Source: a virus
Lineage: Duplodnaviria > Heunggongvirae > Uroviricota > Caudoviricetes
Length of the DNA stretch: 55,118 nt
IMG/VR virus record: IMGVR_UViG_2563366941_000007
Span: 1-55,118 of that record
Strand: one strand, 5' to 3'
The notes beneath the pieces are model-generated. The model was not told where the DNA came from, searched no databases, and saw only the letters and a list, made by a program, of their open reading frames with translations. Numbering within the stretch: position 1 is the stretch's first letter; every line of letters begins with the position of its first letter. Shown here piece by piece: positions 4,326-40,452 of the stretch. Made by a program: the position numbers and the translations under genes.

Positions 4326-4328
4326 CCC

Positions 4329-4357
4329 ACAAAAAAGCCCGCCTGAACCGGCGGGCT
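4329..4357 (-). terminator. Rho-independent terminator-like hairpin downstream of lom
   Basis: GC stem AGCCCGCC/GGCGGGCT with a T-run on the minus strand. Confidence 0.45.
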
Positions 4358-4383
4358 GTCATAACACTGTGTTACCTGGCTAA

Positions 4384-16903: not shown

Positions 16904-17694
16904 TTACGCCAGTTGAACGGACACGAACTCATCAGGATCAGCCAGCAGCATCAGCGGTGCTGACTGAATCATGGTGAACTCTCGCGCCGGATCGCCGGAT
17001 GTCTTCCAGTTTTTCGGATAACGGGGAGACGCATTAATACCCTCACTCAATGCATCCGCATCCTGAATACAGCCATAGGTGCGCAGACCGCGTGCATGAG
17101 TGTTACCCAGCACCATCGTGTTGTCCGGCAGGAAGTTCTTTTTGACGCCGTTTTCCACGTACTGTCCGGAATACACGACGATGGCCACATCTCCATACAT
17201 TCCCTTATAAGACACCGCTTTGCCCAGGTCTTTTACCGCTGTCTCCAGTTCGGAATGAGAGCCGCGACGGGTATCCAGCTTCTCCCTGACGGCTTTGAAG
17301 GAACGGAACAGCGCCCAGCCTTTCGGATCAAACACGATGATATTCACCACGCCGCTGGCGTTCAGCGCGTAGGCTTCGATATCGTCGGTCGGATCATACG
17401 TGGACTTGTCACGCTTGCTCCACTCCGTGCCGCCGGACTGCGTGATGTTGTTGGCCGCACTGCGGCCCATATCCACCTCAACCGGATCGAAGGCTTCACC
17501 AGTCATGGTGTATTTGCCCTTGAGCACGGCAGAAACGGCCTGCATCTCTTCGACCTGAGCAATGGCCAGCTCTTCGTCACGCATGTTCTGCATGATGATG
17601 CGACGGCGGCGGTAAGCCGGGTCCGCCAGATTCTGCGGATCTTCATCCGGCAGGCGACGCAGGGTCATCTGCGGATTCACCTCATGCTTGGGTT
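16904..17694 (-). pseudogene. E: Major capsid protein E, C-terminal fragment (codons from ...KPKHEVNPQMTLRRL to the stop)
   Basis: Translation matches about 260 C-terminal residues of lambda gpE; the N-terminal 91 codons lie 11.6 kb away at 29261..29536. Confidence 0.9.
17685..17694. repeat. 10-bp direct-repeat core TGCTTGGGTT, left copy (element/E junction)
   Basis: Identical 10-mer at 29292..29301; both sit exactly where E homology breaks. Confidence 0.8.
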
Positions 17695-17766
17695 ACATGA
17701 GTCAAATATGAAAGGAACTGAATGATTTTTAATGAAATAAATGGCTCTCTCTATCAAAATACAGCT

Positions 17767-17792
17767 AAAAAGCAATACACGTAGCAATACAG
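17767..17792. repeat. Tandem GCAATACA(N) motifs (AAAAAGCAATACACGTAGCAATACAG), candidate integrase arm-type sites, left end
   Basis: Near-identical motif AAAAAGCAATACAAGCTGCAATACAG at 29139..29164 at the opposite end of the element. Confidence 0.45.
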
Positions 17793-17821
17793 CGCTTCGC
17801 AAAGGTATGTCACTATATCTA

Positions 17822-18790
17822 CTAGTGCCAACCAGAATACGAATATCTTTGCTTTGCTTCTTCTGGGCTCATACCCACTAGTAAAGATACTAATTCAAAG
17901 TCAGGTTGTGGAATTGGAATCAATGCAGCCAAATATGCTGGCTTATTGAGAACAATTGTTGATAATTTAGCTTTATTCACCTTAGATAACTCAATATTAC
18001 TTTCCGCTACCTTCGGGAACTCCATAATAAATGAATCAATTTCCCTTATGAGATAATCGATCAACGCCACTATACTTTCTGTCAAATCAATATATTTTGA
18101 CAACTCACTAGCACCAATTTCTTTCTTTATTTCATCCAATTTAATTTCAAACACTGGCTTGTCTTTACTGGCAATATTAGACAAACGTTTCTTTAAATCT
18201 GAATCAAGCTGATTCCTGACAATTAAACTTTTCAAAACAAAATTATAATTAAACAAAAAAGCATCAATTCGAGCAATATTCCTCCATGACTTTCCAATTT
18301 CTTCATCTGACGGCATAATAAGTTCATGTTTTAGTATCTTGTACTTAATAAAAAAAACAAACCTCTCAAATAGAGATTTATTAGCTGTGGGTATCTTTTT
18401 TATAAATGAAAGACGGCTAATATCGAAATTTACCTCCCCGGCGTTAAATAAAAATTCATTTATTGCCAGCGCTCTTAATATTGGATTTCTAGATCTCAAA
18501 CCAATATAACTACTTTTAATTCCCACAAGTGTATTTATCATCTGAAAAGAAACCATCATAAGCGTATTAGCAGAATTAAATTTCTCCGTTTCTATTTTAA
18601 TCTTCTCCTGCCTATTATTGATGCAATAAGCAGTTAAGCCTCCCATAAGCGCCGATAAAAAAGATAATGCAATAGGGAATACATAATCTTTTGTATAATC
18701 AACATCTGCTTTCAACATTAGTATTGCTTTAGCAATCAAAACTGCATCAGGGGTCATGTTAGAGCCGTCATTAAAAATTAAACACAACAC
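17822..18790 (-). CDS. Hypothetical membrane-anchored protein (N-terminal TM segments plus ~250-aa soluble domain), AT-rich cargo gene
   Basis: 322-aa ORF in a conspicuously AT-rich segment; hydrophobic stretches AVLIAKAILML and VFPIALSFLSALMGGLTAYCI near the N-terminus; no recognisable family by eye. Confidence 0.55.
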   Translation of the reverse strand: MLCLIFNDGSNMTPDAVLIAKAILMLKADVDYTKDYVFPIALSFLSALMGGLTAYCINNRQEKIKIETEKFNSANTLMMVSFQMINTLVGIKSSYIGLRSRNPILRALAINEFLFNAGEVNFDISRLSFIKKIPTANKSLFERFVFFIKYKILKHELIMPSDEEIGKSWRNIARIDAFLFNYNFVLKSLIVRNQLDSDLKKRLSNIASKDKPVFEIKLDEIKKEIGASELSKYIDLTESIVALIDYLIREIDSFIMEFPKVAESNIELSKVNKAKLSTIVLNKPAYLAALIPIPQPDFELVSLLVGMSPEEAKQRYSYSGWH

Positions 18791-19454
18791 CCATAAAATA
18801 TAACAGCTTATTGTTTAGAAAAGCAATATCATACACTCTATGATAAGCGTAATATCTGACAGGCATGGTGTGTTACGACACTTAATTAAACGTAATTTGC
18901 TAAAATTTTACACACAGAATCACACCAGGCTCTAACTCTCCTTTCATTACAATTGTAAGCATACAATTATCCTACCAGAACTTTATTGTTGAGCTCTCCC
19001 TTTTGAGCCCATCCCATAATGAATTGACGAAAGAACCGTATCTGTGGAGTAATCATTTCTGCGCGGTTCTATGTCGAAGACAAAATGTGGTATGCGCATC
19101 TAGTCAGAGGGAAAGCAATTTTTCAGGGAAATATCATCTCTACATGGTTAAAACAACCAGAAGAAGTTATCAAGCAAGTTGGGTATGAAGATTTTCCTAT
19201 AATAGTAACGAAACGGGTTTCACCTGAGCGGTTGTGTTCGATCCGCCACAATACGCATAGGATGCCCTGTAATCCGTATTCTGCTTACTCAACAGCTTAC
19301 CAGCAGGACTCGTAAGGCTGTTGCGATAGTGCAGAAGTAGGCCACGACCATAAAGTGAAGCCAGTGGCGCGTTATCGACTACTTTAGTGTAGAGCCTGAT
19401 TTCAACGCAAGCATGAGAGTTTTTTCTGGCGATAGGCCGTGACAAACAGCAACA

Positions 19455-19675
19455 AAATCAGAGAAAGGAAACGGCAGAGGCCAAAAAGCCCGTTTTCAGC
19501 GCCTGTCATTTCCTTTCTTTTCAGGGGGTATTTTAAATAAAAACATAAAGTTACGGCAAAGAAGAACGGAAAAGCCTTAAACCGGAAAATTTCCATAAAT
19601 AGAGAAAAACTGCGCGCCTGACGCCCCGTAACGTTCTGGATCGCCGGAAAGGACCCGCCAGCCAGAGCGGGCCCT
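19455..19675. other. cos-like packaging site of the satellite (cosB R-site and IHF-site homologs; divergent cosN)
   Basis: Aligns base-for-base with much of the prophage cos region 35480..35720 (e.g. GAAAGGAAACGRCAGAGGCC, TTTCCTTTCTTTTCAGGGGGTATTTTAAATAAAAACAT, CCTTAAACCGGAAAATTT); differs at about 5 positions within the cosN-equivalent segment. Confidence 0.75.
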
Positions 19676-19682
19676 AATTTCA

Positions 19683-20066
19683 TCAACCAATCAGCTTATA
19701 GCGACCATCCCGTGCATTGCGGCGTACACGCTCAATCTTGAGGCATAGCGCCGCATCTGGCTTTTTTGGGACAGGTACGCGGCAATATTCAGAAGCGCGA
19801 GGAATATTATTTATCCAGTCGATCACTTCACTTAAATACCAGGCCTTACGCCCTTCCGTAACCTGCACACGCTCCGGGAACTCTCCACTAGCCTCAAGGT
19901 TTAGCAGTGTACGACGACTCAGGGTTGTAATTTCCATCACCTGATTCATATCAACAAGGCGCTCGCTTAAACACATTTTGTCAGCGATAGCTTTTAATTC
20001 CTCTACAGCTGGATTCGGGTACATCATTTCGGCAATTGGCTTAAGGTCATTGTAATCATTCTGCAT
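19683..20066 (-). CDS. AlpA/Nu1-like HTH protein next to cos; candidate packaging-redirection (Rpp-like) or regulatory protein
   Basis: 127-aa ORF with HTH-like segment MEITTLSRRTLLNLEASGEFPERVQVTEGRKAWYLSEVIDWI; functional call is inference from position beside cos. Confidence 0.45.
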   Translation of the reverse strand: MQNDYNDLKPIAEMMYPNPAVEELKAIADKMCLSERLVDMNQVMEITTLSRRTLLNLEASGEFPERVQVTEGRKAWYLSEVIDWINNIPRASEYCRVPVPKKPDAALCLKIERVRRNARDGRYKLIG

Positions 20067-20077
20067 TGTATCCCCCT

Positions 20078-20419
20078 TTACACACGAGCCAGCGGCTGAA
20101 CAGAAATACCTGAGCCAACAAACGCTGCAACCTTTACTGACAGTTCTTTAACAGACTCAGGCCAGTTCAGAGCATCAACATTTAAGACACCTGTCTTATA
20201 GACCTGAGCCTGTGTTTTTTTCGCGGTGTCGATTTGTACAGCGGAAACATAAACCGCTTTACCTACGCTCGAACCATCCCATACCACCAGTGCACCTGTT
20301 GCATCTTCCTGCATCAGTGGCGTAAATGCAGGAATTACCCCTTTATTAGCTGAAAATATCCCCAGCGTAGTCACCAGTGCTTCAGTGCCAGCCATGAGTT
20401 CAGTGTAATGAGTAGCCAT
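20078..20419 (-). CDS. Head decoration protein, divergent homolog of lambda gpD
   Basis: 113 aa; shares PLM...VVWDGS...YKTG...WPE...AAFVGSGISV pattern with gpD (PLML...VAWDGT...YKSG...WPE...[10 protein letters not shown]). Confidence 0.7.
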   Translation of the reverse strand: MATHYTELMAGTEALVTTLGIFSANKGVIPAFTPLMQEDATGALVVWDGSSVGKAVYVSAVQIDTAKKTQAQVYKTGVLNVDALNWPESVKELSVKVAAFVGSGISVQPLARV

Positions 20420-20428
20420 TGCTCCCCC

Positions 20429-21469
20429 TTAGCCAATGCGAACGGTAACAAAACGATTGATGCGGGCCGGTATTGGCTGTGGTGCTGAATGTGTCTGCAC
20501 ATATTCAATAGCCGGATCACCAGGCACAATATAGTTTTTCGGTGCAAGTTCGGCTTTAGTCAGCCCCATTCGGATTAGCTCCGGATCCTGAATACCGCCA
20601 TAGGCGACAATCCCCTGAAGAGCCGTATTGCCAAGCACCATCAAATCAGGATCAAGGAAATGTTTTTCTGTTCCGTCCTCGTCGGTATAACGCCCGCTGT
20701 AAACAACAATCGCAACATCGCCCATATACCCTTTAAAACTCACCGAATCACCAAGGTCTTTAAGGGCCGTTTCCAGTTCGGAATTAGAACCACGACGGGT
20801 ATCCAAAGCCTCTTTTATCGCTCTGAATGAACGGTATTTCTTCCATACATTACCACCCATAATGATGATATTAGTGACGCCCTCACTAAATTCTGCGTAG
20901 CTCTCAATATCATCATTTGGATCAAAAGTTTCTTTATCCTTACCTGACCACTCAGTACCGCCAGACTGAGTGATGATATTTTGTGGTTTTATATTCCAGT
21001 CCAGCTCATAACGTTCAATACCATCGCCCTCAATGATATTTTTCCCCGTTGTGATTGCCTGAACAGCAAGCCATTCAATACGTGCACGAATAGCTTTAGC
21101 CTGATTTACAATCGCCTGTTTAACTTTAATATTACGCGCCCCAAAAGCATTGTATTGCTCAGGTGACACACCAACAGGGCGCACAGCTAACTTATTTGGA
21201 TCAATGCTGCTTTTCGGCTTCATATAACCTGGACGAATTGTTTTTGATTCGTATCCCTCATCTCGTGAAACTTTACTGCCCACCATAGGAGAGCAAAACG
21301 CCGCGATCGGGATATTTGGATCGTCGATCGTATCAAGAATAATGTCTCTCGATTCAAACATTACCGAGCGAGTGAAAAACAAACTGGTAAACAACGCATT
21401 TAATTTTTTTTGTACATCTACAGCATTAACCACCTGTACAAGCTGAGTAGGCGAATATAAATCAACCAT
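20429..21469 (-). CDS. Major capsid protein, divergent homolog of lambda gpE
   Basis: Shares PGYMKPK, QSGGTEWS, DTRRGSNSELETALKDLG, GDVAIVVYSG, MVLGNT blocks with gpE; start at 21469 is preceded by AAGAGGA. Confidence 0.8.
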   Translation of the reverse strand: MVDLYSPTQLVQVVNAVDVQKKLNALFTSLFFTRSVMFESRDIILDTIDDPNIPIAAFCSPMVGSKVSRDEGYESKTIRPGYMKPKSSIDPNKLAVRPVGVSPEQYNAFGARNIKVKQAIVNQAKAIRARIEWLAVQAITTGKNIIEGDGIERYELDWNIKPQNIITQSGGTEWSGKDKETFDPNDDIESYAEFSEGVTNIIIMGGNVWKKYRSFRAIKEALDTRRGSNSELETALKDLGDSVSFKGYMGDVAIVVYSGRYTDEDGTEKHFLDPDLMVLGNTALQGIVAYGGIQDPELIRMGLTKAELAPKNYIVPGDPAIEYVQTHSAPQPIPARINRFVTVRIG

Positions 21470-21751
21470 ACGCATCCTCTTTGCATTCATTAAAAATAAT
21501 TGTGGATATATGCTATCACCGATATTTGTCATGCGAACACATGCAACCGAGTGCAATGTTGTATAAAGTTTTGGGGTGACAACTTCAGTGCGGACAATTA
21601 GTGTTAATATCTTCACTCCCTTTGGTCGGGATTTATGTAGCATGCCGGAAAATTTATTTTTTCCGGCCTTTTTTTATTGGCAATATTTAAAACGGGGGTG
21701 ATGCTGCCAACTTACTGATTCAGTGTATGATGGTGTTTTTGAGGTGCTCCA

Positions 21752-22027
21752 GTGGCTTCTGTTTCTATCAGCTGTCCCTCCTGTTCAGCTACTGACGGGG
21801 TGGTGCGTAACGGCAAAAGCACCGCCGGACATCAGCGCTATCTCTGCTCTCACTGCCGTAAAACATGGCAACTGCAGTTCACTTACACCGCTTCTCAACC
21901 CGGTACGCACCAGAAAATCATTGATATGGCCATGAATGGCGTTGGATGCCGGGCAACAGCCCGCATTATGGGCGTTGGCCTCAACACGATTTTACGTCAC
22001 TTAAAAAACTCAGGCCGCAGTCGGTAA
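21752..22027 (+). CDS. insA: IS1 InsA
   Basis: 91-aa [43 protein letters not shown]... Confidence 0.95.
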
Positions 22028-22449
22028 CCTCGCGCATACAGCCGGGCAGTGACGTCATCGTCTGCGCGGAAATGGACGAACAGTGGGGCTATGTCGGGGC
22101 TAAATCGCGCCAGCGCTGGCTGTTTTACGCGTATGACAGGCTCCGGAAGACGGTTGTTGCGCACGTATTCGGTGAACGCACTATGGCGACGCTGGGGCGT
22201 CTTATGAGCCTGCTGTCACCCTTTGACGTGGTGATATGGATGACGGATGGCTGGCCGCTGTATGAATCCCGCCTGAAGGGAAAGCTGCACGTAATCAGCA
22301 AGCGATATACGCAGCGAATTGAGCGGCATAACCTGAATCTGAGGCAGCACCTGGCACGGCTGGGACGGAAGTCGCTGTCGTTCTCAAAATCGGTGGAGCT
22401 GCATGACAAAGTCATCGGGCATTATCTGAACATAAAACACTATCAATAA
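21946..22449 (+). CDS. insB: IS1 InsB reading frame (InsAB' transposase made by -1 frameshift)
   Basis: ORF ...[50 protein letters not shown]... typical of IS1 InsB. Confidence 0.9.
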
Positions 22450-22463
22450 GTTGGAGTCATTAC

Positions 22464-22913
22464 CTAAAACGGGATATCATCTCCCCATTGCTCATTATCT
22501 CCCACTGGTGGCTGGCTTCCTTGCTGATCTGCCTGTTGTTTTGCTCTGTTCAGTGCGTCAGTAGCCTGCCCCTGTTGGCCTTTATTGCCGCCCGGTCGCA
22601 CCGATCGCGCACTGATTACGCTGTCTGCGATAACCTGCCAGCCCTGCCGCGTTTCGCCGTTCTGTCCAGTCCACTGGCTCATCTGCATGTTACCCGCCAC
22701 GCTCAGGAGTTCGCCTTTGTGATGCTTTGCCAGCGCGTCGGCTTGTCTGCCAAACGCCAGGACAGATAACCACATCGTCGCCTGACCGTCATCCGACTGA
22801 CTGCAGGGCAGTGATACCGCCATACGCGCCAACGTCATGGGGGTGCCCTTGCTGGTCTGTTTTGTCTGCGGGTCGTCCACCGACCGCCCGTAAACTGATA
22901 TTTGCGCCGTCAT
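22464..22913 (-). CDS. Single-stranded DNA-binding protein (SSB-like)
   Basis: 149-aa ORF with OB-fold-like core and acidic C-terminal tail ending DDIPF; the present stop codon TAG is formed by the last base of IS1 plus the target duplication. Confidence 0.7.
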   Translation of the reverse strand: MTAQISVYGRSVDDPQTKQTSKGTPMTLARMAVSLPCSQSDDGQATMWLSVLAFGRQADALAKHHKGELLSVAGNMQMSQWTGQNGETRQGWQVIADSVISARSVRPGGNKGQQGQATDALNRAKQQADQQGSQPPVGDNEQWGDDIPF

Positions 22914-23155
22914 GCGGCCTGCTCTCCGGACTTAATATTGATTGTTGTCACTTCCTCCGCTTCAGCAATCTCCCGTTCGGTCAGAGTGGCAAAGTTTGCA
23001 GCCGCCGTTGTCATGAATGCGCTAATCAGTTCGGGATGTGCTTTCGCGTATCCTTCCCCGGCGTTGCGGTCGATGATTTTTATCGACACCCTTAACCAGT
23101 ATTCCGTCAAATCAAGGGCGTGCGATTGTGATTTTTTTGTGTGCTTCGCTGTCAT
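22910..23155 (-). CDS. Hypothetical protein (81 aa) upstream of ssb
   Basis: ORF with overlapping ATGA junction to ssb; no recognisable family. Confidence 0.4.
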   Translation of the reverse strand: MTAKHTKKSQSHALDLTEYWLRVSIKIIDRNAGEGYAKAHPELISAFMTTAAANFATLTEREIAEAEEVTTINIKSGEQAA

Positions 23156-23205
23156 AGGCTTTATCTCACAGCAGTAAATTAAAATTTTTGCGTTTTAACC
23201 CTTCA

Positions 23206-23430
23206 TCTGTTCACCTTTTGATATTTTCTCTTTTAATTCATAATGTTAATGGGTAAACAGTTTCACAAAAACTATTCACCAACTGTTCACCACTGTTCAC
23301 CCTTGAAGCTCAATAAACAATCAAAAAGGTGAACAGTGAATAGTTTGGTGAACAGTTCATAAATAACTGTTCACCCTATAATATACTGATATAAAAGATA
23401 TTTATGACAGGGTGAACAGTGGTGAACAGT
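23206..23430. repeat. Iteron cluster (about 9 copies of GGTGAACAGT / ACTGTTCACC in both orientations): candidate replication origin
   Basis: Repeats read directly at 23206, 23272, 23282, 23292, 23328, 23347, 23367, 23411, 23421; AT-rich spacers; immediately 3' of the rep gene. Confidence 0.7.
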
Positions 23431-23442
23431 TATTCCATAAGT

Positions 23443-25263
23443 TTAATTTTTGCTATCGTCATTAGTGACCGATACACATGATGGCATCCAGTCTTCTGAT
23501 TCCTCCGTCAGTGTCACGTTTGAACGCAAACCGTGCTTCGTTTTCCGTTTCATATACTCCCTGCCATATTCCGCCATTGCCCCCGGCATATCTTTACCGA
23601 AGCGCGTCAGTGTTACAGGTTTACCAAACCCATGTGCCCTCATATAAGCCAGATAGGCATGATAGAGATACCTGCGTGGGCTGAATGGCACAATTTCAGC
23701 ATTACCCACTAACAGGCCATCACACATTACCGATGCCATGAGATAGCCGCAGAAGTCCACCAGCGAATCCCCCTCTCGCTTTATCGCCAGTGCTTCTTCA
23801 GATTTCTGCTGCTCATATAACAGGCGTCTGGCTTCGTCCTGATCAGCAAACCGTGTAAGCAGATGACGAATCACTACCGCCAGCTCACCTTCTATTTTTT
23901 CCGCCAGCATCGAATCGCGTTCGTTCTCCGGTACAACTTCCGAAAAATTGAATATCACCCGACGACGTGAGATCCCCCCGCTGCGGTCACTGAATGACAT
24001 GGCGTTATTGTTAACCGCCAGCACTACTGCCGGAATACGCGTTGAATAGGGGGCTTTGTGTTTCGGGTCAATTGCCACCTTGTCACCGCCTGTAATGGCC
24101 TTAATCCCTGCCCCATCACCAGCGTAGCGGGTCATATCCGGCATGATAATCAGCGAAAAGCCAACCACTAACGCACGTTCCCTTGCATCTTCCAGCGCCT
24201 TCATGCTTGCTGATACTGTATTAGCCTTACCCGCCAGCATGGTGCAAATCTCCGCCATCACACTTTTACCACTTCCCCCCGGCCCTGTTACCTCAATGAA
24301 TAACTGCCAGTCGTACCGGTTCGCCAGCACCATGAATAATGCCGCCAGTACGCGATCTGCCTTGCGGTCATTCTCAGCCACCGAACGGCGCAACCACTTC
24401 CAGAAATTCGGCGCATGTGTTGCCAGCGTTTCCCCCTCTGCTGGTGGGCTGAAAGGTAATTCACTGGCAATTAACAACCAGTCGTTTTTGTTATGCTCCC
24501 GAAAATTACCAGTTCTGGTATCAAATACCCCGTTACTGAATCCAATCAGGTTACGGGCTGTATTCCCCATTACAGGCAAACTTAACTTCATGGTATCTAC
24601 CGCCGATTTAATAGCGTTCTGCGAATAGCTGATCTCCGCATCAATGAAAATCTGCGCCATAGCACGCTGTAACTCTTTATCCTGAACCGGCTCCCATACA
24701 ACGCCGTTGTAATGATGAACGGTGTCAGAGTCGGCATTGATTGCCAGTTCACCGCCATAATGTGCAAGGAGAACTTCACCGCGCTGGCTGGCCCCCATCT
24801 GATTCAACGCCAAAGATGAAGCACGCTCGTCATTTTTGCGCTCTGCCTTCTTCACTGGCAGTTCAATCACCAGACTTTCCCCATGCTCCGCTTCAGCTTT
24901 TAGGCCGACAAGGCGCGGAGTCCAGTCTTCAGGCTCTCGATCAACAAAGCTACGGTAACAACGTGCTTCCTTTACGCCTGCAATAGCAAGTAATGTCGCA
25001 ACCTTCGTCAGACTTTTCTCTGCAATCTTTCCGGCACGATAAACACGCACATAATGACGGCCTTCATCGATAATTTGCATATCATCCAGGTTTTCCAGTT
25101 GTTCCGTACCCAGAATGACTGGTGGTGTATCATCTGCTGCAATATGCTTACCTGCCCATTCATTCCATTCTTTTGCATGGCTCCAGGCATCACTGCCAGC
25201 AAAAATGATGACTTCCGTCATTTTGTCGCGCGGTTGGTATTTTAAGTTCGGAGCACGTTTCAT
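23443..25263 (-). CDS. Replication initiator, P4-alpha/D5-type SF3 helicase family (primase-helicase-like)
   Basis: 606-aa ORF with Walker A GPGGSGKS and surrounding D5/SF3-helicase-like sequence; adjacent to the iteron cluster. Confidence 0.7.
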   Translation of the reverse strand: MKRAPNLKYQPRDKMTEVIIFAGSDAWSHAKEWNEWAGKHIAADDTPPVILGTEQLENLDDMQIIDEGRHYVRVYRAGKIAEKSLTKVATLLAIAGVKEARCYRSFVDREPEDWTPRLVGLKAEAEHGESLVIELPVKKAERKNDERASSLALNQMGASQRGEVLLAHYGGELAINADSDTVHHYNGVVWEPVQDKELQRAMAQIFIDAEISYSQNAIKSAVDTMKLSLPVMGNTARNLIGFSNGVFDTRTGNFREHNKNDWLLIASELPFSPPAEGETLATHAPNFWKWLRRSVAENDRKADRVLAALFMVLANRYDWQLFIEVTGPGGSGKSVMAEICTMLAGKANTVSASMKALEDARERALVVGFSLIIMPDMTRYAGDGAGIKAITGGDKVAIDPKHKAPYSTRIPAVVLAVNNNAMSFSDRSGGISRRRVIFNFSEVVPENERDSMLAEKIEGELAVVIRHLLTRFADQDEARRLLYEQQKSEEALAIKREGDSLVDFCGYLMASVMCDGLLVGNAEIVPFSPRRYLYHAYLAYMRAHGFGKPVTLTRFGKDMPGAMAEYGREYMKRKTKHGLRSNVTLTEESEDWMPSCVSVTNDDSKN

Positions 25264-25526
25264 TTGTTACCTCCGGCAACTAACATTGCCCGAATTTTAC
25301 GGATATAGCCTGCGGCACGCCTCTGATTATCTGTCTTGCAATTTTTTACCAGAATGAAATCTCTTTCGAACTGCTGACGCGGCATAACACATTCAAAATC
25401 ATAACCATCACGCAAATAAGAGACACGACGATCATCAACCGAAATAATCTTTACCCGATAGCCATAGCTGTCTTTGAAAATATCCCCAAGGCTGATTTTT
25501 GAATGAGTGGATTTGACCGCTGGCAA
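25260..25526 (-). CDS. Hypothetical protein (88 aa), translationally coupled to rep
   Basis: ORF with ATGA overlap to the rep start. Confidence 0.4.
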   Translation of the reverse strand: MPAVKSTHSKISLGDIFKDSYGYRVKIISVDDRRVSYLRDGYDFECVMPRQQFERDFILVKNCKTDNQRRAAGYIRKIRAMLVAGGNK

Positions 25527-25554
25527 TAAAGCCAGAAAATTTATTTTTCATTTT

Positions 25555-25779
25555 TTATTCTCCGGTATAGCTCTGGTCGTGTATTTTTATAGCTTCATCC
25601 AGCTCTTTGATGACAGGATCAAGTAACGTAATTAACGCTCCAGCTAAATTAGCATCCCGTTCATCGTGTTCCGCATTTGTTGTCCCATCAAGCCAGGTTG
25701 ATAAGATTTCTCGCATATTTTTGCCACAAACGAGCGCGTTTTCAGCATGTGTCAGCACTTTAAAATAAAGATCATTCAT
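25555..25779 (-). CDS. Hypothetical protein (74 aa)
   Basis: ORF in the same operon orientation; overlaps the upstream ORF by 8 nt. Confidence 0.4.
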   Translation of the reverse strand: MNDLYFKVLTHAENALVCGKNMREILSTWLDGTTNAEHDERDANLAGALITLLDPVIKELDEAIKIHDQSYTGE

Positions 25780-25975
25780 GGCACACCTCCTGACGAATAC
25801 GGGCGGCGAATATCATCACGTAGCCAGTTGGGGATTGCAGCCGGGCTTCCTGTTCGCTGGCGGCCTCGATGGTAATCACGCGCGGTTGTGCCGTACTCAG
25901 GGCGATAAAACGCCAGATGTATTTATTCAGGTTGTGCGGGTCCCGCCCTTGCGGGTGTGTGGTATGATTTCTCAT
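25772..25975 (-). CDS. Hypothetical protein (67 aa), first gene of the leftward replication operon
   Basis: Start at 25975 is preceded by GAGG at good spacing; the ORF track's longer 104-aa version is probably over-extended. Confidence 0.4.
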   Translation of the reverse strand: MRNHTTHPQGRDPHNLNKYIWRFIALSTAQPRVITIEAASEQEARLQSPTGYVMIFAARIRQEVCHE

Positions 25976-26010
25976 AGCTACCTCGATACTGTTGCTATCG
26001 TTGGTGGTTA

Positions 26011-26056
26011 GAAGCCCGTTGGTGTTCCTAGCACCTTCGGGCTTTGCTTTTTTAAG
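26011..26056 (+). terminator. Two-tier GC hairpin followed by a T-run (terminator-like or small RNA 3' end)
   Basis: GAAGCCCG...CGGGCTTT stem enclosing GGTG...CACC, followed by GCTTTTTT; no plus-strand gene upstream. Confidence 0.3.
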
Positions 26057-26068
26057 TGCCTCCGTGTT

Positions 26069-26118
26069 AAGGTGGTCACCTAACAATGAAAAGGCTAATT
26101 CAATAGGTGGTCACTTGT
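26069..26118. promoter_or_regulatory. Direct repeats AGGTGGTCAC (two copies ~36 bp apart) upstream of the RHH gene; candidate operator
   Basis: AAGGTGGTCACCTAACA at 26069 and AGGTGGTCACTTGTCAACG at 26105, in the divergent intergenic region. Confidence 0.35.
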
Positions 26119-26174
26119 CAACGATCAAACGCGATAAAAGTCCTAAGGGTGATGGGCAATCTCCACAATTCAGA

Positions 26175-26306
26175 ATGCGAATTTCTCCAGAGCTAAAAGA
26201 GCAATTCGACAAAGAAGCGCAGAGCGACGGCATAAGCCTAGCCAACTGGCTTAAAGAATTAGGGCGCAAAGAGCTGCTACGGCGCGGTATTGAACCAAAA
26301 GGATAA
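26175..26306 (+). CDS. Ribbon-helix-helix (Arc/CopG-like) DNA-binding protein
   Basis: 43-aa product MRISPELKEQFDKEAQSDGISLANWLKELGRKELLRRGIEPKG has an RHH-like strand-helix-helix pattern; start chosen inside the longer ORF 25992..26306. Confidence 0.5.
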   Translation: MRISPELKEQFDKEAQSDGISLANWLKELGRKELLRRGIEPKG

Positions 26307-26333
26307 GAATAATTGAAGTCAAGGAGCTAACAC

Positions 26334-26690
26334 ATGAAATACGAATTCTTCGCAACAAGTAGCAGTAGTTTGGATGTATACATAGTCACTGTATCAAACG
26401 ATTCTGGCTCTCTAATCATGACTTGTAATTGTCCAGCAGGAAGTAAAGGTATTCTATGTAGACACCGTAAAGCTTTAATTACCGGAAAAATCCGCGGTAT
26501 ATTCACTCCCCCAAGAAGGAATAATCCCGAAAAATTACAAGAAGCTATAAATTTAATAGCCACATATGGCATAGATAAAACATTAAAGTTGTACACTGAT
26601 GAGTTAGAACGAGCAGAACAGACTTGGATAAGTGTTCGCGATAATTTGAGAGCAATGATAAACGCTCTTGTTGAACCACCTAAATATTGA
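26334..26690 (+). CDS. Small SWIM-type zinc-finger protein (CxCx9CxH), AT-rich cargo gene
   Basis: 118 aa; motif MTCNCPAGSKGILCRH; strongly AT-rich coding sequence. Confidence 0.5.
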   Translation: MKYEFFATSSSSLDVYIVTVSNDSGSLIMTCNCPAGSKGILCRHRKALITGKIRGIFTPPRRNNPEKLQEAINLIATYGIDKTLKLYTDELERAEQTWISVRDNLRAMINALVEPPKY

Positions 26691-26821
26691 ACTGTTCACA
26701 TTGCCTATCAGGCGATAACCTCGTATTCTGATTAAGGCTAACTATATACTCACATTGGCGACCAATTCTGGTCGCCTTTATCTACCATTTTTATAATATC
26801 ATAGATTAAGAGTGTTAATCC

Positions 26822-27676
26822 TTACCCCCTGAATGGAATTGATGAGGATTTAATTTCCACAGAACCAAATCCTCTTGAATCCAAAAACATTTTTATACCA
26901 GCCTCAATAAAATCATAATCGCTTGTCGGGCCAATTGTAATGCTTTTAATTGGTAACTTTCTATTATCTTTATTATTAATAATGATATAAGGGATGATAC
27001 CATTATTATTTATTCTAAATTTCACATCTGGCATTTGTATCCACGGAGTAAACACCAGTCTAAATTCATTTTCTTCGATAAAACTAGGATGTTTAAAAAA
27101 TGGGATATATTTAGATATAAATTGATACGTAGAGACCATTGTTACAAAATGATCATTCATTTCTTTAATGTTAATACCATTACAAGAAAAAAACTCATCC
27201 AACTCCTTACTCATCTTTGTAATATCGTCATTATTTGAATATATAACATCATGTGCAACACAATTTAAATAAATATTTTGACAAAAACTCACAAGTTCAT
27301 CCGCATCAAATTCAATGCAAACGCCCTGTTTATTTCCGTAACCTCTCCACTGACTTAACTTATCGTTTTCTTTACAAAAAGATATGCTATAAACATGTTT
27401 ATCAATCCCTTTTTCTTTTTGTAACTTCCCTTTCTCATACATGTCAAGAGACTTGAGCAAAATAGTTTTCTTATCTTTTGGGATGATATTATCATCAACT
27501 ATTTTAATTGTATTTCGAAAACATTCACATCCATGGTTAGACTCCTCTTTATCATTTAAGAAATATATATTTGTAGCCCATAAAGAATTAGAGTCTAATA
27601 TACCTTTCAAACCAAAAAGATCTGTATAATGAAATATAGCCACAATGCCCCACCTAATAGTTAAGTCGTTTCCCAC
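26822..27676 (-). CDS. DUF2971-like protein, AT-rich cargo gene (candidate defence-associated)
   Basis: 284 aa; N-terminal FHYTDLFGLKGILDSNSLWATNIYFLNDKEE fits the DUF2971 signature as recalled; AT-rich. Confidence 0.55.
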   Translation of the reverse strand: MGNDLTIRWGIVAIFHYTDLFGLKGILDSNSLWATNIYFLNDKEESNHGCECFRNTIKIVDDNIIPKDKKTILLKSLDMYEKGKLQKEKGIDKHVYSISFCKENDKLSQWRGYGNKQGVCIEFDADELVSFCQNIYLNCVAHDVIYSNNDDITKMSKELDEFFSCNGINIKEMNDHFVTMVSTYQFISKYIPFFKHPSFIEENEFRLVFTPWIQMPDVKFRINNNGIIPYIIINNKDNRKLPIKSITIGPTSDYDFIEAGIKMFLDSRGFGSVEIKSSSIPFRG

Positions 27677-27891
27677 TCACCTCGAATCCATGCCTGCACT
27701 TCTGAAAGACGATATGCAACAGCAGTGGAACCAATCTTGATCCGCTTAGGAAATTTTCCTTCCTTCTCCAGCTTCCAGCGTGTGCTGTTCGCAAGAGTGG
27801 TTAGCTCCCGACATTCTTTCTCACGGATCATACGATCGATGTTAGGAATGTACTCCAGACCCTTTTTATCAACAATTGCCATTTTTTTCAT
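27661..27891 (-). CDS. alpA: AlpA-family transcriptional regulator/excisionase-like HTH protein
   Basis: 76 aa; ...LTTLANSTRWKLEKEGKFPKRIKIGSTAVAYRLSEVQAWIRG matches the AlpA (CP4-57 regulatory) family; adjacent to int. Confidence 0.75.
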   Translation of the reverse strand: MKKMAIVDKKGLEYIPNIDRMIREKECRELTTLANSTRWKLEKEGKFPKRIKIGSTAVAYRLSEVQAWIRGEWETT

Positions 27892-27892
27892 G

Positions 27893-29128
27893 TTAACCAG
27901 CCTTTTGTTTGAGGATTGTCACTTTTGAATCAGCACCTGCGATGCTATTGAGATATGTAGTCCAGAGTTCCAGAGCATCCAGTTTTTTAGCCATAAACTT
28001 ACTCCGGTTGTAAACACCCGCCACGCCAGGTAGCGCATGGCCTAACAGTTGTTCTACTACATAAAATTCAACACCGAGATCACTTAGATGAGTAGATAGC
28101 GTTCTTCTAAGGTCGTGTAGTGACCATTGTTTTTCATGGCCCAAACGTTTACCGATTTTCCCCCCAATCTTGCTTACGCTTTCTCTAATTCGCAGACTTC
28201 CCAGCACATAACCAGTATGTCTTGTCTCTTCGTGAACATCCGTTACCCACTGTCGTAGAATTTCAGGTACTGGTCTGACGATTTCAACACCAGTTTTTGA
28301 GTGATCTTTTGGTACCGTCCAAACCCAACTTTCGAGATCCCATTCGCTCCATTCAGATAATCGGGCTTCACTCATTCGACATCCAAATACTGTACAAAGC
28401 ACAAACATTTTTCGCGTGTATTCAGACATTAGTTTTAAATCAGGCTCGACAAAAATTGCCTTCCAGAGCTGGCCCAGTTCGGCTTCATCCAGAACCCGAT
28501 CCCGCTTACCTGCAATCTGCCCCACATCACTCATGCGCAAATCCTTTAAAGCATCACATGTCGCGTACTGGCGTACCCGACAAAAACGAAGAGCTAATTT
28601 AGTGTCAGAAAAAACATACGCCGCCATAACTGGTGCATTACGTTTAATTCGGTCAAAACAGTCCAGCCATTCATATAGGTGAGTGTCATTTACAGGCAAA
28701 TGACCGATATAGGGAAAGATATGCTTTCGAAATCTGCCAAGCGTTACAGCATGAGTTTTACGACGCACCTTACAGTAATTTTCATACCAGTAATTTAGTG
28801 CATCCTCCACTGTGACCGGCTTTAAGCGTTCTTCAGCCTGAATCTTAATCTGGATACGCGGATCACGTTTGTCAGCCAACCAACCACGGCACTCGTCGCG
28901 CTTTTCCCTTGCCTGTTTGAGTGACATATCAGGATATTTACCCAACGTTAGCCAGACCGGAGCAGCCCGGCCACCTGCTAACCTGTAGAAGAAAACAAAG
29001 CTCACAGCCCCCTTGGTACTCACACGAATAGAAAGCCCCTTTCCATCAGCAATGGTGATCTGCTTTTCTCTGGGTTTCCCCAGATATCCTTTAAGCGCTT
29101 TGTCGCTCAGTTTGTTCTCGCCAGCCAT
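27893..29128 (-). CDS. int: Tyrosine integrase, P4-like family
   Basis: Start MAGENKLSDKALKGYLGKPREKQITIADGKGLSIRVSTKG... has a P4-integrase-like N-terminus; C-terminal HDLRRT...LLGH...Y catalytic-region motifs; sits at the element end. Confidence 0.85.
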   Translation of the reverse strand: MAGENKLSDKALKGYLGKPREKQITIADGKGLSIRVSTKGAVSFVFFYRLAGGRAAPVWLTLGKYPDMSLKQAREKRDECRGWLADKRDPRIQIKIQAEERLKPVTVEDALNYWYENYCKVRRKTHAVTLGRFRKHIFPYIGHLPVNDTHLYEWLDCFDRIKRNAPVMAAYVFSDTKLALRFCRVRQYATCDALKDLRMSDVGQIAGKRDRVLDEAELGQLWKAIFVEPDLKLMSEYTRKMFVLCTVFGCRMSEARLSEWSEWDLESWVWTVPKDHSKTGVEIVRPVPEILRQWVTDVHEETRHTGYVLGSLRIRESVSKIGGKIGKRLGHEKQWSLHDLRRTLSTHLSDLGVEFYVVEQLLGHALPGVAGVYNRSKFMAKKLDALELWTTYLNSIAGADSKVTILKQKAG

Positions 29129-29138
29129 TTTTAGCCCC

Positions 29139-29164
29139 AAAAAGCAATACAAGCTGCAATACAG
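29139..29164. repeat. Tandem GCAATACA(N) motifs (AAAAAGCAATACAAGCTGCAATACAG), candidate arm-type/operator sites, right end
   Basis: Matches the motif at 17767..17792; lies just upstream of the int start codon. Confidence 0.45.
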
Positions 29165-29260
29165 AGATGATTGCAACACACAGATAACGAGGAAAATTCA
29201 GTGAAAGCGCCAGATAAACTTATTCTTTATTATCAAAAGATTAAGTGTAAAAACCAGCAA

Positions 29261-29536
29261 CTACACGAAAGCCTCAGAAAGCCATGCTAAGTGCTTGGGT
29301 TTGACATATCCCGGCGTAAATTCAGAGGTGGAGCCGCCACGGGAGCGGATAACCTCACCGGAAACAATCGGCGAAACGTACAGCGCCATGTTTACCAGTC
29401 CCGGAATTTGTGAGAGATAGACTTTCTCCGTAGTGAAGGGATAGCTCTCACGGAAAAAGAGACGCAGAAACAGCGGATCAAACTTAAATTTCTGCTCATT
29501 TGCCGCCAGCAGTTGGGCGGTTGTGTACATCGACAT
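29261..29536 (-). pseudogene. E: Major capsid protein E, N-terminal fragment (91 codons) fused to 9 element-derived codons
   Basis: MSMYTTAQLLAANEQKFKFDPLFLRLFFRESYPFTTEKVYLSQIPGLVNMALYVSPIVSGEVIRSRGGSTSEFTPGYVKPKH then LAWLSEAFV-stop. Confidence 0.9.
29292..29301. repeat. 10-bp direct-repeat core TGCTTGGGTT, right copy (element/E junction)
   Basis: Identical to 17685..17694. Confidence 0.8.
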
Positions 29537-29555
29537 AAAAAAATCCCGTAAAAAA

Positions 29556-29571
29556 AGCCGCACAGGCGGCC
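29556..29571 (-). other. GC hairpin with minus-strand T-run between D and E (terminator/attenuator-like)
   Basis: GCCGC-ACAG-GCGGC stem flanked by an A-run on the plus strand. Confidence 0.3.
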
Positions 29572-37297: not shown

Positions 37298-37568
37298 GAT
37301 GTTACCGTAGTATGTGAGTATCCATCGAATAGACACCAAGCAAAAAAGCTCCCGAAGGAGCCTTCATTTTCACTTTTTTAAATCCAACGACAGACGGCTG
37401 GCATTTAAGTATTGTGAAATATTATCAAATGTAATCATCATTGATTTACAAAAGATACATTTTGCCCCGAAAGGATTCATGTCAGAAACATCAAAAGATG
37501 ATGTTCTATACTGGGAACCATGACAACACGGGCATCTAAAGTGAATATGGTTTGTAATATTGTCTACC

Positions 37569-37781
37569 TCAAAGCGCCACTACATGAACAGCGGCAGGAC
37601 CTTTAGGTCCGTTCTCAATACCAAATTCAACTTCCTGATTCTCAGTTAATGTTTTGAAATCGTTGCTCTGAATTGCTGAGAAATGGACAAACACATCTTT
37701 GCTGCCATCTTTCGGCGTGATGAAACCAAAACCTTTTTCAGGGTTAAACCATTTCACTAAACCAGTCATTTTGTTAGACAT
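37569..37781 (-). CDS. cspI: Cold shock protein CspI-like
   Basis: 70-aa [45 protein letters not shown]... Confidence 0.85.
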
Positions 37782-38143
37782 AATTATTACCTTTTGAAGA
37801 AATTAGCCCTTGGGCAGAATGGTCCGAAAAAAAATATCAGAGAGAAAAACCAACAAGGAAATCTCAAGAGGTACAAATAATAAAATTATAACAATGACTG
37901 CTTCAGATAAATTTGTAACAAACCAGAACACCATTAACGCATGATTAACCACCCATAGCAAGGATTACTTTTGTAAAGAAAAACACAGCAATGAAAGAAT
38001 AGCTTTATTTATTAATAAAACGTGTCATTCTGATTAAGACCTTTTATCTTACCCTTAAGATTTCAGGAATTTTGGCTCATGGAAGAGTCCTTTTTATTTA
38101 AATTTTACATTCCGCGATGTAAATGTTCCGATTTAATATTACC

Positions 38144-40171: not shown

Positions 40172-40452
40172 GAGATTGTGGTGCTTTTTGTGGGAGTCAT
40201 CCACTTACGCACTTTGTTTTGCCATGCCAGCAGTTAGCTTCTGCTGTAAAACTATTCATGCAGCAAACCTGCACTTCACCACAATGGTTAGCATACTTTT
40301 CCTGATTAAGATTTTGCCAAATATGCTAGCCATTGTTTCATGTATTGGACCTCCTTACTTTTTATTAAAGAGATCCAATATTCACTACTCTGTCCGTATC
40401 TCTACTCAGGCATCAGCCTTCTTCGTTATCGTATACAGACGAGCGATGAATT

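What the first reader, a model, noticed from the sequence alone, without database searches (positions are those of the whole stretch)
26175..27676. AT-rich cargo island between alpA and the replication operon: DUF2971-like protein, SWIM zinc-finger protein and an RHH protein
Composition here is visibly much more AT-rich than the flanking element genes. It encodes a 284-aa protein with a DUF2971-type N-terminal signature (FHYTDLFGLKGILDSNSLWATNIYFLNDKEE), a 118-aa protein with a SWIM-like CxCx9CxH motif, and a small RHH protein. Satellites commonly carry anti-phage or anti-competitor systems in such variable hotspots. None of these three proteins has an established function that I can assign, so this is a candidate uncharacterised defence or regulatory module.
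Basis: partly seen in the sequence, partly recalled or inferred. Interest (0 to 1): 0.7.

Follow-up and report, generated by a model that had tools for sequence, protein, structure and literature searches.

The report
Satellite defence hotspot with DarT-like toxin
The AT-rich stretch is the known variable cargo slot of a phage satellite that sits inside a lambda-like prophage's capsid gene; here the slot holds one gene for a predicted DNA/RNA-modifying toxin, probably an anti-phage weapon, next to the satellite's own small repressor and an uncharacterised zinc-finger protein.

Summary
The three ORFs and the AT-rich composition are real, but they are not one module. The host element (17685..29301) is a helper-embedded PICI of the published "11capE" type, inserted in the lambda-like major capsid gene. 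The RHH protein (26115..26306, 63 aa, Arc-like) has core-like GC. It is conserved in 183 E. coli genomes and has operator-like palindromes that change together with its DNA-reading strand, so it is most likely the satellite's regulator. The SWIM protein (118 aa) always lies 27 nt downstream of that RHH. It occurs with other cargo or with none, and its function is unknown. Only the DUF2971 gene (26822..27643, 273 aa, 29% GC) is true cargo. Its confident model is closest to DarT DNA ADP-ribosyltransferases, its H-Y…ExE residues are invariant, and dN/dS is 0.11. In satellites with a ≥88% identical integrase, the same slot after alpA holds PD-T7-1, TIR, AbiC-like and HNH effector genes. The DUF2971 family already contains one validated single-gene abortive-infection system (Aristaios) and the PADLOC candidate PDC-S31. 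Verdict: a new member of a known kind, a plausible single-gene ART defence in a known satellite hotspot. No phenotype has been shown.

The parts
17685..29301 (-). Helper-embedded PICI (about 11.6 kb, including an IS1) inserted in the lambda-like major capsid gene E. It is bounded by the 10-bp core TGCTTGGGTT at 17685-17694 and 29292-29301.
   Evidence: The split E gene has an N-terminal part at 29261..29563 and a C-terminal part at 16904..17680. The core repeat was found. The same nested layout is annotated in RefSeq genomes and described as '11capE' HE-PICI in PMC10111431.
27893..29128 (-). Tyrosine integrase (411 aa) of the capsid-E-targeting clade.
   Evidence: Pfam Arm-DNA-bind_3 and Phage_integrase. 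RefSeq annotation. 66 IMG/VR loci carry an integrase 88-100% identical.
27661..27891 (-). AlpA regulator/excisionase. It lies directly upstream of the cargo gene on the same strand.
   Evidence: PF05930 at E 3e-15. The gap to the DUF2971 start is only 17 nt.
26822..27643 (-). Cargo gene: a 273-aa DUF2971 protein, predicted to be a DarT-like ADP-ribosyltransferase.
26757..26786 (+). GC-rich hairpin plus T-run between the convergent SWIM and DUF2971 genes. It is a terminator for the RHH-SWIM transcript, and there is no U-tract on the minus strand.
   Evidence: Terminator scan; sequence.
26334..26690 (+). Small SWIM zinc-finger protein (118 aa): a beta-sheet, then CxCx8CxH, then a C-terminal helical hairpin. 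It is co-transcribed with the RHH.
26115..26306 (+). Arc-like ribbon-helix-helix regulator (63 aa), a core gene of the satellite family.
   Evidence: phrog_228 Arc-like repressor at 4e-6. HicB PF05534 at 5e-4. Full-length alignment to P22 Arc 1b28. Conserved in 183 E. coli genomes, with homology ending at its stop codon. Orthologues.
26070..26124 (.). Two operator-like palindromic sites (AGGTGGTCAC, 35 bp apart). The second overlaps the RHH Shine-Dalgarno/start and lies in the spacer of a leftward promoter-like site, TTGACA(26121-26116)-18-TAGCCT(26097-26092).
   Evidence: Repeats D2/I2. The core sequence differs between elements together with the RHH beta-strand residues. The promoter was read directly from the sequence and is an inference.
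25772..25975 (-). Icd-like gene, the first gene of the leftward replication operon (followed by DUF4222, D5-type primase and SSB).
   Evidence: NCBIfam phage_ICD_like at 7e-19. Pfam hits for the neighbouring genes. RefSeq annotation.

Best explanation
The region is a composite of three parts inside a helper-embedded PICI.

(1) The RHH protein is the satellite's own Arc-like DNA-binding regulator. It probably binds two palindromic operators that overlap its own start and a leftward promoter for the icd-like/primase operon.

(2) The small SWIM protein is an accessory gene appended to the RHH operon. It would therefore be expressed with the repressor in the quiescent state. Its function is unknown.

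(3) The DUF2971 gene is horizontally acquired cargo in the satellite's 5' accessory hotspot, immediately after alpA. It encodes a single-polypeptide ADP-ribosyltransferase of the H-Y-E clade, closest in fold to DarT. I infer that it uses NAD+ to ADP-ribosylate a nucleic acid, or another essential target, of an infecting or competing phage (or of the infected cell). That would abort the infection, as the DUF2971 protein Aristaios does in Lactococcus.

The DUF2971 gene starts 17 nt after alpA, is co-oriented with the helper's late operon, and has no promoter-like site of its own. It is therefore probably transcribed with alpA, by AlpA autoactivation and/or helper late read-through.

Shown: gene structures, fold, conserved catalytic motifs, purifying selection, hotspot variability and the independence of the three genes. 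Inferred: enzymatic activity, target, anti-phage role, operator function and transcription pattern.
For: Element identity:
- The capsid gene is split around int-alpA...primase-SSB-capsid.
- The 10-bp core repeat bounds the element.
- The layout matches the published HE-PICI zones Integration/Bro('dynamic')/Replication/Late.

DUF2971 as an ART:
- The AF2 model has pLDDT 88.5.
- H5-Y6, Y102 and E191xE193 are invariant in 59 homologues.
- 23/59 members hit Tox-ART-HYD1 weakly.
- Independent literature places DUF2971 in the HYE clade near DarT/AbiGi.
- The gene is functional: dN/dS is 0.11.

Defence role by association:
- The same slot in satellites with an 88-100% identical integrase holds PD-T7-1 (E 7e-151), PDC-S35/CAP12-PCTIR TIR (8e-67), putAbiC, an HNH effector-like protein, DUF3800 and DUF5677.
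- A second DUF2971 protein, which matches PDC-S31 at 7.6e-26, occupies the 3' hotspot of sister element L004. TIR and Abi genes sit at that position in L001 and L002.
- DUF2971 homologues lie next to Abi_C on IncI plasmids and next to AIPR in Klebsiella prophages.
- Aristaios is a validated single-gene DUF2971 Abi system.
- PICIs are reported to carry immune systems at their 5' or 3' ends.

Independence of the three genes.

RHH as regulator: Arc alignment, operator repeats, and operator core and beta-strand changing together across elements.
Against: - No experiment or expression data exist for this gene.
- The match to PADLOC PDC-S31 is weak for this protein (E 2.4e-4), and P0025 in the same clade gives none.
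- Direct comparison with the Aristaios sequence could not be made.
- Co-transcription with alpA and the helper late operon would express a toxin during the helper's own lytic cycle. That fits an interference or life-cycle role at least as well as classical defence.
- Orthologues at 38-60% identity are always in this slot of HE-PICIs. This could mean a satellite-specific function rather than freely exchanged defence cargo.
- IS elements interrupt the gene in three E. coli genomes.
- O1/O2 covariation could equally reflect an RNA helix that sequesters the RHH ribosome-binding site.
Confidence: 0.6

Rival explanations
1. One reading: DUF2971, SWIM and RHH form one three-gene defence or toxin-antitoxin-like module. 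DUF2971 would be the toxin, with SWIM and/or the RHH as its antitoxin or regulator, analogous to DarT with DarG.
For: In E. coli complete genomes all 36 copies of this DUF2971 allele have SWIM and the RHH beside it. Buttiauxella carries DUF2971 (60% identity) plus a SWIM homologue plus an RHH in the same arrangement. DarT-type toxins usually need an antidote.
Against: - The E. coli co-occurrence reflects one inherited >=95% identical block, not independent association.
- DUF2971 orthologues lack SWIM in K. aerogenes, Enterobacter, Citrobacter and IMG/VR loci L072 and L079.
- SWIM occurs with Bro-N, with a membrane protein, with another cargo or with no cargo at all.
- The RHH is present in 183 genomes, against 36 with DUF2971.
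- SWIM has no macrodomain or hydrolase-like fold.
- The genes are convergent, not an operon.
Confidence: 0.08
2. The DUF2971 ART is a satellite life-cycle or helper-interference factor rather than a host-protecting defence. It would be expressed with alpA or helper late genes and would modify helper or host DNA/RNA/proteins to bias replication or packaging towards the satellite. It would occupy the place that Bro-N/eta-kil-type genes take in other PICIs and in P4.
For: - The gene starts 17 nt after alpA, with no promoter-like site upstream.
- It is co-oriented with the helper late operon, which PMC10111431 proposes reads through into the satellite.
- Orthologues down to 38% identity always sit in this slot after alpA in HE-PICIs. 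An AlpA-DUF2971 remnant also occurs on Klebsiella plasmids.
- The slot is the 'Bro zone', which holds regulatory Bro-N proteins in other elements.
Against: - Only 10 of 65 closely related satellites carry it, so it is dispensable.
- The alternatives in the same slot are recognised defence genes such as PD-T7-1, TIR and AbiC-like.
- Family members on plasmids and prophages sit beside Abi genes, unconnected to satellites.
- Aristaios acts as an Abi defence.
Confidence: 0.2
3. RHH-SWIM is a type II toxin-antitoxin (addiction) pair. The RHH would be an autoregulating antitoxin and the 118-aa SWIM protein a toxin, stabilising the satellite.
For: The operon order is small RHH first and then a ~115-aa protein, at a fixed 27-nt spacing with a strong SD. 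PGAP names the RHH 'HicB family antitoxin' in one genome. Operators overlap the operon start.
Against: - The RHH is widespread without SWIM and keeps the same C-terminal tail.
- The HicB hit is below Pfam's threshold.
- SWIM has no similarity to any toxin family in Pfam, PADLOC or the PDB.
- An IS insertion in the SWIM 3' end is tolerated without loss of the RHH.
Confidence: 0.07
4. The DUF2971 ART is a counter-defence factor. It would inactivate a host immune component so that the satellite and helper can establish or spread.
For: ART enzymes can inactivate host factors. Homologues are common on conjugative plasmids: 621 plasmid records, 172 of them conjugative.
Against: The plasmid copies examined lie beside Abi_C and DUF3800 genes rather than in a recognisable anti-defence leading region. 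The only characterised family member is a defence. The slot neighbours in sister satellites are defences.
Confidence: 0.05

Closest known systems
Aristaios (Lactococcus plasmid pUCCL641_199; Grafakou et al. 2024, PMC11381338)
   Different: The host phylum differs, and the carrier is a plasmid rather than a phage satellite. Sequence relatedness beyond shared Pfam membership was not tested, because the sequence was not retrievable. No phenotype is known for the window protein. The window gene appears transcriptionally coupled to alpA.
DarT of DarTG toxin-antitoxin systems (PDB 7omv, 7yk3, 7omu, 8baq)
   Different: Identity is only 5-14%. The window protein has two large helical inserts (residues ~32-74 and ~141-182). 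There is no DarG macrodomain partner anywhere nearby. There is no Pfam DarT hit. The target is unknown.
PADLOC candidate PDC-S31
   Same: PDC-S31 models are DUF2971 proteins. The DUF2971 gene in the 3' hotspot of sister satellite L004 matches at E 7.6e-26, and orthologue P0003 at 4.5e-6.
   Different: The window protein matches only weakly (E 2.4e-4, partial). It aligns with the L004 protein only over the C-terminal two thirds (hhalign probability 83%). PDC-S31 is itself only a computational candidate.
Helper-embedded PICI '11capE' (Tommasini, Mageeney and Williams 2023, PMC10111431)
   Same: It shares the integration site in lambda-type capsid gene E, the 10-bp core, the co-orientation with late genes, and the zones int-alpA / dynamic zone / primase-SSB / own capsid gene. 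The paper's supplementary gene orders already list 'AlpA, DUF2971, -HicB' and 'AlpA, DUF2971, -DUF3950'.
   Different: The paper treats the zone as a 'Bro zone' of regulatory proteins. It does not discuss defence cargo, DUF2971, SWIM or the RHH regulator (0 mentions of SWIM in the main text). The window copy additionally carries an IS1 between the SSB and capsid genes.
P22 Arc / Mnt-type ribbon-helix-helix repressors
   Same: The alignment runs end to end, including the beta-strand 'PQFxxR'. There is a PHROG Arc-like hit. Paired palindromic sites lie in a divergent control region.
   Different: The E-value against Arc is not significant on its own (0.66). The window protein has a conserved extra C-terminal tail RRGIEPKG. 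DNA binding is untested.

Membership tests
Pfam DUF2971 (PF11185) | Score above Pfam's gathering threshold for the family model | tested here: met
   46.8 bits against a cutoff of 22, E 7.6e-12. 55 of 59 aligned homologues also match.
ADP-ribosyltransferase superfamily, H-Y-E clade | ART split beta-sandwich core fold | tested here: met
ADP-ribosyltransferase superfamily, H-Y-E clade | Conserved motif I His, motif II Tyr and motif III catalytic Glu | tested here: met
   H5, Y6, Y102, E191 and E193 are invariant in 59 homologues and present in the window protein. Assigning each residue to a motif rests on the secondary-structure order and on PMC12522546, not on a superposition.
ADP-ribosyltransferase superfamily, H-Y-E clade | NAD+-dependent ADP-ribosyl transfer activity | not testable with these tools
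   This needs a biochemical assay.
DarTG toxin-antitoxin | Adjacent DarG macrodomain antitoxin | tested here: not met
   The neighbours are alpA, SWIM and the RHH, and there is no macrodomain hit. Orthologue neighbourhoods also lack one.
DarTG toxin-antitoxin | Sequence membership in the DarT family | tested here: not met
   No DarT/DUF4433 Pfam hit for any of 59 members at E<=1. No PDB sequence hit. The similarity is at fold level only.
Aristaios antiphage system | Single gene with a DUF2971 domain and a predicted ART fold | tested here: met
   No partner is conserved across orthologues. Some Enterobacter copies do have an extra 254-aa gene upstream.
Aristaios antiphage system | Demonstrable sequence homology to pUCCL641_199 | not tested
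tblastn of the plasmid collection with the window protein and with a Firmicute homologue listed no Lactococcus record among the rows shown.
Aristaios antiphage system | Abortive-infection protection against phage | not testable with these tools
   This needs a phage challenge.
Helper-embedded PICI (HE-PICI, capsid-E site) | [quoted passage not shown] | tested here: met
   Split E gene, core repeat, and all late genes and satellite core genes on the minus strand.
Helper-embedded PICI (HE-PICI, capsid-E site) | Primase/replication zone and own capsid homologue downstream | tested here: met
   D5-type primase and SSB. The satellite's own capsid and decoration genes are at 20429..21643 and 20078..20419.
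Helper-embedded PICI (HE-PICI, capsid-E site) | Helper-dependent excision and transfer | not testable with these tools
   Indirect evidence only. A related K. aerogenes element is deposited both in the chromosome and as a 10,541-bp circular record.
SWIM zinc finger (PF04434) | CxCxnCxH zinc-binding signature and a Pfam score above threshold | tested here: met
   24.1 bits against a cutoff of 19.6. C31, C33, C42 and H44 are invariant in 60 relatives.
Ribbon-helix-helix (Arc/MetJ/CopG) regulators | N-terminal beta-strand followed by two helices, with similarity to a known RHH | tested here: inconclusive
   PHROG Arc-like at E 4.4e-6 and full-length alignment to Arc. However, Pfam HicB is below cutoff, the PDB E-value is 0.66, and no structure model was made.

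The most novel reading that the evidence does not exclude
The inverted RHH-SWIM cassette would be the missing quiescence switch of Gram-negative PICIs. The Arc-like RHH, together with an antisense small RNA, would hold the replication operon off. The SWIM protein would sense a helper or invading-phage product. AlpA or helper late transcription running through the cargo gene and antisense across RHH-SWIM would flip the switch, and would at the same moment express a DarT-like ART. That ART would ADP-ribosylate phage DNA, giving an induction-coupled toxin instead of an antitoxin-controlled one.
Probability: 0.1. Interest if true: 0.7.

Novelty: new member of a known kind. Interest (0 to 1): 0.35.

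Why it matters
If the DUF2971 protein is an active anti-phage ART, it would extend the Aristaios type of single-gene ADP-ribosyltransferase defence from lactococcal plasmids to Enterobacterial phage satellites. It would also show that helper-embedded PICIs use the slot after alpA as a defence hotspot, something the paper describing these elements did not discuss. A DarT-like enzyme without a DarG partner raises the question of how self-toxicity is controlled; the possibilities are autoinhibition by the helical inserts or transcriptional coupling to alpA. The RHH-SWIM cassette is a tractable entry point to how Gram-negative PICIs stay quiescent. The family of about 115-aa SWIM proteins (195 clusters at 50% identity) has no known function.

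Tried and rejected
- Sequence searches of the PDB with the DUF2971 and SWIM profiles gave only chance hits, such as GABA receptor and ribosomal S31.
- Rfam found no RNA family in 25200-28200, including C4 and isrK, the immunity-RNA models used on PICIs by PMC10111431.
- A codon-position test was meant to decide whether the RHH frame or the antisense ORF that RefSeq annotates as a pseudogene is coding. It cannot discriminate, because third positions coincide in the two frames. The RHH frame was preferred for four reasons: homology to Arc-like proteins, a conserved SD/start/stop, homology ending at its stop codon, and the low-complexity antisense product.
- The Aristaios sequence could not be retrieved from the plasmid collection.
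- No paper mentions SWIM proteins in satellites or PDC-S31.
- The ideas that the three genes form one module, that SWIM is a DarG-like antidote, and that RHH-SWIM is a TA pair were considered. They were set aside on distribution evidence (see rivals).
- The 284-aa start of the DUF2971 ORF was rejected in favour of 273 aa.
Full report
OBSERVATION

The three ORFs are present, and the composition shift is real.
- GC falls to 0.29 across 26800-27600. The flanking satellite genes are at 0.44-0.50 and the whole window is at 0.495.
- The 26822..27676 minus-strand ORF matches Pfam DUF2971 (E 7.6e-12) and phrog_1762.
- The 26334..26690 plus-strand ORF matches the SWIM zinc finger (E 2.6e-5) and phrog_13130 (1e-82).
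- The small plus-strand ORF ending at 26306 matches PHROG 'Arc-like repressor' (4.4e-6).

Several details needed correction.
- The DUF2971 protein is 273 aa, starting at GTG 27643 behind an AGGTGG Shine-Dalgarno. Almost all homologues are about 273 aa, and a 96%-identical allele has a 1-nt deletion that destroys the longer frame.
- The RHH gene starts at TTG 26115 (ATG in a divergent copy) and encodes 63 aa. A start at 26175 would remove the beta-strand.
- Per-gene GC shows that only SWIM (0.364) and DUF2971 (0.292) are AT-rich. The RHH gene (0.464) looks like the core.

CONTEXT

The genes lie in an 11.6-kb element (17685..29301) that splits a lambda-type major capsid gene E.
- The N-terminal E fragment is at 29261..29563 and the C-terminal fragment at 16904..17680.
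- Both junctions carry the 10-bp core TGCTTGGGTT.
- Reading on the minus strand, the element encodes in order: integrase, AlpA, the cargo, an icd-like gene, DUF4222, a D5-type primase, SSB, its own capsid and decoration genes, a second AlpA-like HTH, and a second AT-rich cargo ORF.
- Identical or near-identical copies in RefSeq E. coli genomes are nested in the same way.

This is the helper-embedded PICI ('11capE') described by Tommasini, Mageeney and Williams (PMC10111431). It has zones Integration, Bro ('dynamic'), Replication and Late. The finding corresponds to their dynamic zone. The paper's text never mentions SWIM, although its supplementary gene orders list 'AlpA, DUF2971, -HicB'.

THE THREE GENES ARE NOT ONE MODULE

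- A 1.7-kb query is found whole in 36 of 5426 complete E. coli genomes. Its first ~320 bases (the RHH and its upstream region) are found in 183, including the cf-PICI of O157:H7 EDL933. Homology stops at the RHH stop codon.
- SWIM is found in 53 genomes.
- SWIM occurs with a Bro-N protein (L003, L013), with a 265-aa membrane protein (L004), with a 233-aa unknown (L025), with another cargo (L090), or directly facing alpA with no cargo at all (L010-L012, L014). In every case it lies exactly 27 nt after an RHH gene.
- DUF2971 orthologues of 38-60% identity sit after alpA in HE-PICIs of Klebsiella aerogenes, Enterobacter and Citrobacter without SWIM, and with it in Buttiauxella.

The RHH is therefore core, SWIM is an accessory of the RHH operon, and DUF2971 is independent cargo.

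THE SLOT IS A DEFENCE HOTSPOT

I fetched 66 IMG/VR loci whose integrase is 88-100% identical to the window's. I then catalogued what lies between the alpA stop and the convergent RHH.
- At least 15 unrelated gene families occupy the slot.
- DUF2971 is present in 10 of 65 loci.
- Representatives of the alternatives match PD-T7-1 (E 7e-151), PDC-S35 with a CAP12/Pycsar TIR domain (8e-67; PF10137 1e-33), putAbiC/AbiP, an HNH effector-like N-terminus (PDC-M68A and CBASS endonuclease effectors), DUF3800 and DUF5677.

The element's other end is variable too. It holds a TIR protein in L001, an Abi protein in L002, a different DUF2971 protein that matches PDC-S31 at 7.6e-26 in L004, and a 322-aa unknown in the window. 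This agrees with the statement that PICIs carry immune systems at their 5' or 3' ends (PMC11364771).

WHAT THE DUF2971 PROTEIN IS

- An alignment of 59 homologues has invariant H5-Y6-T7, N30-D31, E34, W99, Y102, K184, E191, E193 and R195.
- The AlphaFold2 model is confident (pLDDT 88.5, pTM 0.86). It shows a beta core interrupted by two helical inserts.
- 23 of 59 members hit Pfam Tox-ART-HYD1 weakly at the N-terminal HY motif.
- An independent survey classifies DUF2971 as an HYE-clade ART near DarT/AbiGi, with exactly these features (PMC12522546).
- The gene is under purifying selection (dN/dS 0.11 between two E. coli alleles).
- One family member, Aristaios, is an experimentally validated single-gene abortive-infection system that blocks phage transcription/protein production (PMC11381338, PMC13064643, PMC12967558).
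- Homologues elsewhere lie beside Abi_C on IncI plasmids and beside AIPR in Klebsiella prophages.
- No DarG-like macrodomain is nearby, so this is not a DarTG system.

LIKELY EXPRESSION (inference)

The gene begins 17 nt after alpA on the same strand, with no promoter-like site upstream. The whole satellite is co-oriented with the helper's late operon, and the describing paper proposes that this operon reads through into the satellite. The hairpin at 26757-26776 has a T-run only on the plus strand. It should therefore stop RHH-SWIM transcripts but not minus-strand transcription. The ART is thus probably made with AlpA, on induction or infection. This could itself be the safety catch for a toxin without an antidote. 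It equally fits a helper-interference role, which I keep as the main rival at 0.2.

THE RHH AND SWIM

- The RHH aligns end to end with P22 Arc, including the 'PQFxxR' beta-strand.
- Upstream lie two palindromic sites, AGGTGGTCAC, 35 bp apart.
- Across elements their core changes: GGTGGTCAC, GGTGACCAC, GGTGTACAC, GTACGTAC and GGTAACTACC. The RHH beta-strand changes with it: QFRMRIS, PFHMRIV, TFQIRIS and MKHIRFE.
- The second site overlaps the RHH start. By my reading of the sequence, it also lies in the spacer of a leftward TTGACA-N18-TAGCCT promoter facing the icd-like/primase operon.
- I therefore take the RHH to be the satellite's repressor. An RNA-helix explanation of the O1/O2 covariation is not excluded.

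The SWIM protein belongs to a broad family of about 115-aa proteins: 195 representatives at E<=1e-3, with invariant Y16, C31, C33, C42 and H44. Its model has pLDDT 80.7: a three-stranded sheet, the zinc knuckle and a long helical hairpin. It has no informative structural neighbour. Its only leads are a weak match to the N-terminal part of PADLOC candidate PDC-S62 and its co-transcription with the repressor. That position resembles lysogeny-expressed accessory genes, which is analogy only.

VERDICT

The most likely reading is a known satellite type carrying, in a known kind of accessory hotspot, a new member of the DUF2971/Aristaios/PDC-S31 group of DarT-like ARTs, next to an uncharacterised RHH-SWIM regulatory cassette. 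Nothing here is categorically new, and no function has been demonstrated. Interest is moderate to low (0.35). The most promising lead for follow-up is the RHH-SWIM cassette and the question of how an antidote-less DarT-like enzyme is kept harmless.

Noticed in passing
window 25960-26058 (+): Candidate ~80-nt small RNA antisense to the Shine-Dalgarno/5' leader of the icd-like/replication operon. It has an extended -10 (TGgTATGAT, 25960-25968), then two hairpins, the second a terminator (26012-26044 plus T-run). The fold has MFE -35.8 and z -6.1. The terminator stem keeps pairing through compensatory changes in 3 of 6 elements. There is no Rfam hit. Its position resembles the P1 c4 / P4 CI immunity RNAs.
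   Followed up: partly
window 26050-26316 (-), and L005 9010-9753: RefSeq/PGAP annotates a 'hypothetical protein' pseudogene (a 247-aa CDS in EDL933) on the strand opposite the RHH gene, and usually misses the RHH itself. The two frames share third codon positions, so both stay open. The antisense product is low-complexity and is probably a mis-annotation.
   Followed up: partly
window 17822-18790 (-): The second cargo hotspot is at the satellite's 3' end. Here it holds an AT-rich (GC 0.32) 322-aa ORF with a probable N-terminal membrane segment and no Pfam or PADLOC match. The same position holds a TIR protein, an Abi protein or a PDC-S31 DUF2971 protein in sister satellites.
   Followed up: partly
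window 21700-22450: An IS1 (InsA/InsB ORFs at 21752..22449) is inserted between the satellite's SSB gene and its capsid gene. It is absent from the otherwise identical element in CP018206.
   Followed up: partly
L007/L008 (K. aerogenes CP142846.1 and CP142848.1): A related HE-PICI with a 59%-identical DUF2971 gene is deposited both inside a chromosomal prophage and as a separate 10,541-bp circular 'plasmid' record. This suggests that an excised satellite episome was captured by the assembly.
   Followed up: partly
E. coli genomes H169-H171, OW968288/OW968124/OW967975: IS3 or IS5 interrupts the DUF2971 gene in three genomes. IS1414 sits in the 3' end of SWIM in three related genomes. This may reflect AT-rich target preference or selection against the cargo.
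   Followed up: no
L018-L020 (Enterobacter), 4207-4976: In some HE-PICIs a 254-255-aa protein with no Pfam or PADLOC match lies between alpA and DUF2971. It may be a partner gene in those variants, and it is absent from the window.
   Followed up: no
window 19683-20066 (-): A second AlpA-like HTH protein (127 aa, PF05930 at 7.6e-9) follows the satellite's head-decoration gene. It is annotated as an HTH regulator in RefSeq.
   Followed up: no
window 37542-37927, 40437-40829, 47675-47846, 54612-54663: Rfam finds two cspA thermoregulator leaders, a sok antitoxin RNA and DicF elsewhere in the window, consistent with further prophage/cryptic-prophage content. It also finds IS-related RNAs at 1-62, 704-902 and 51431-51547.
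   Followed up: no
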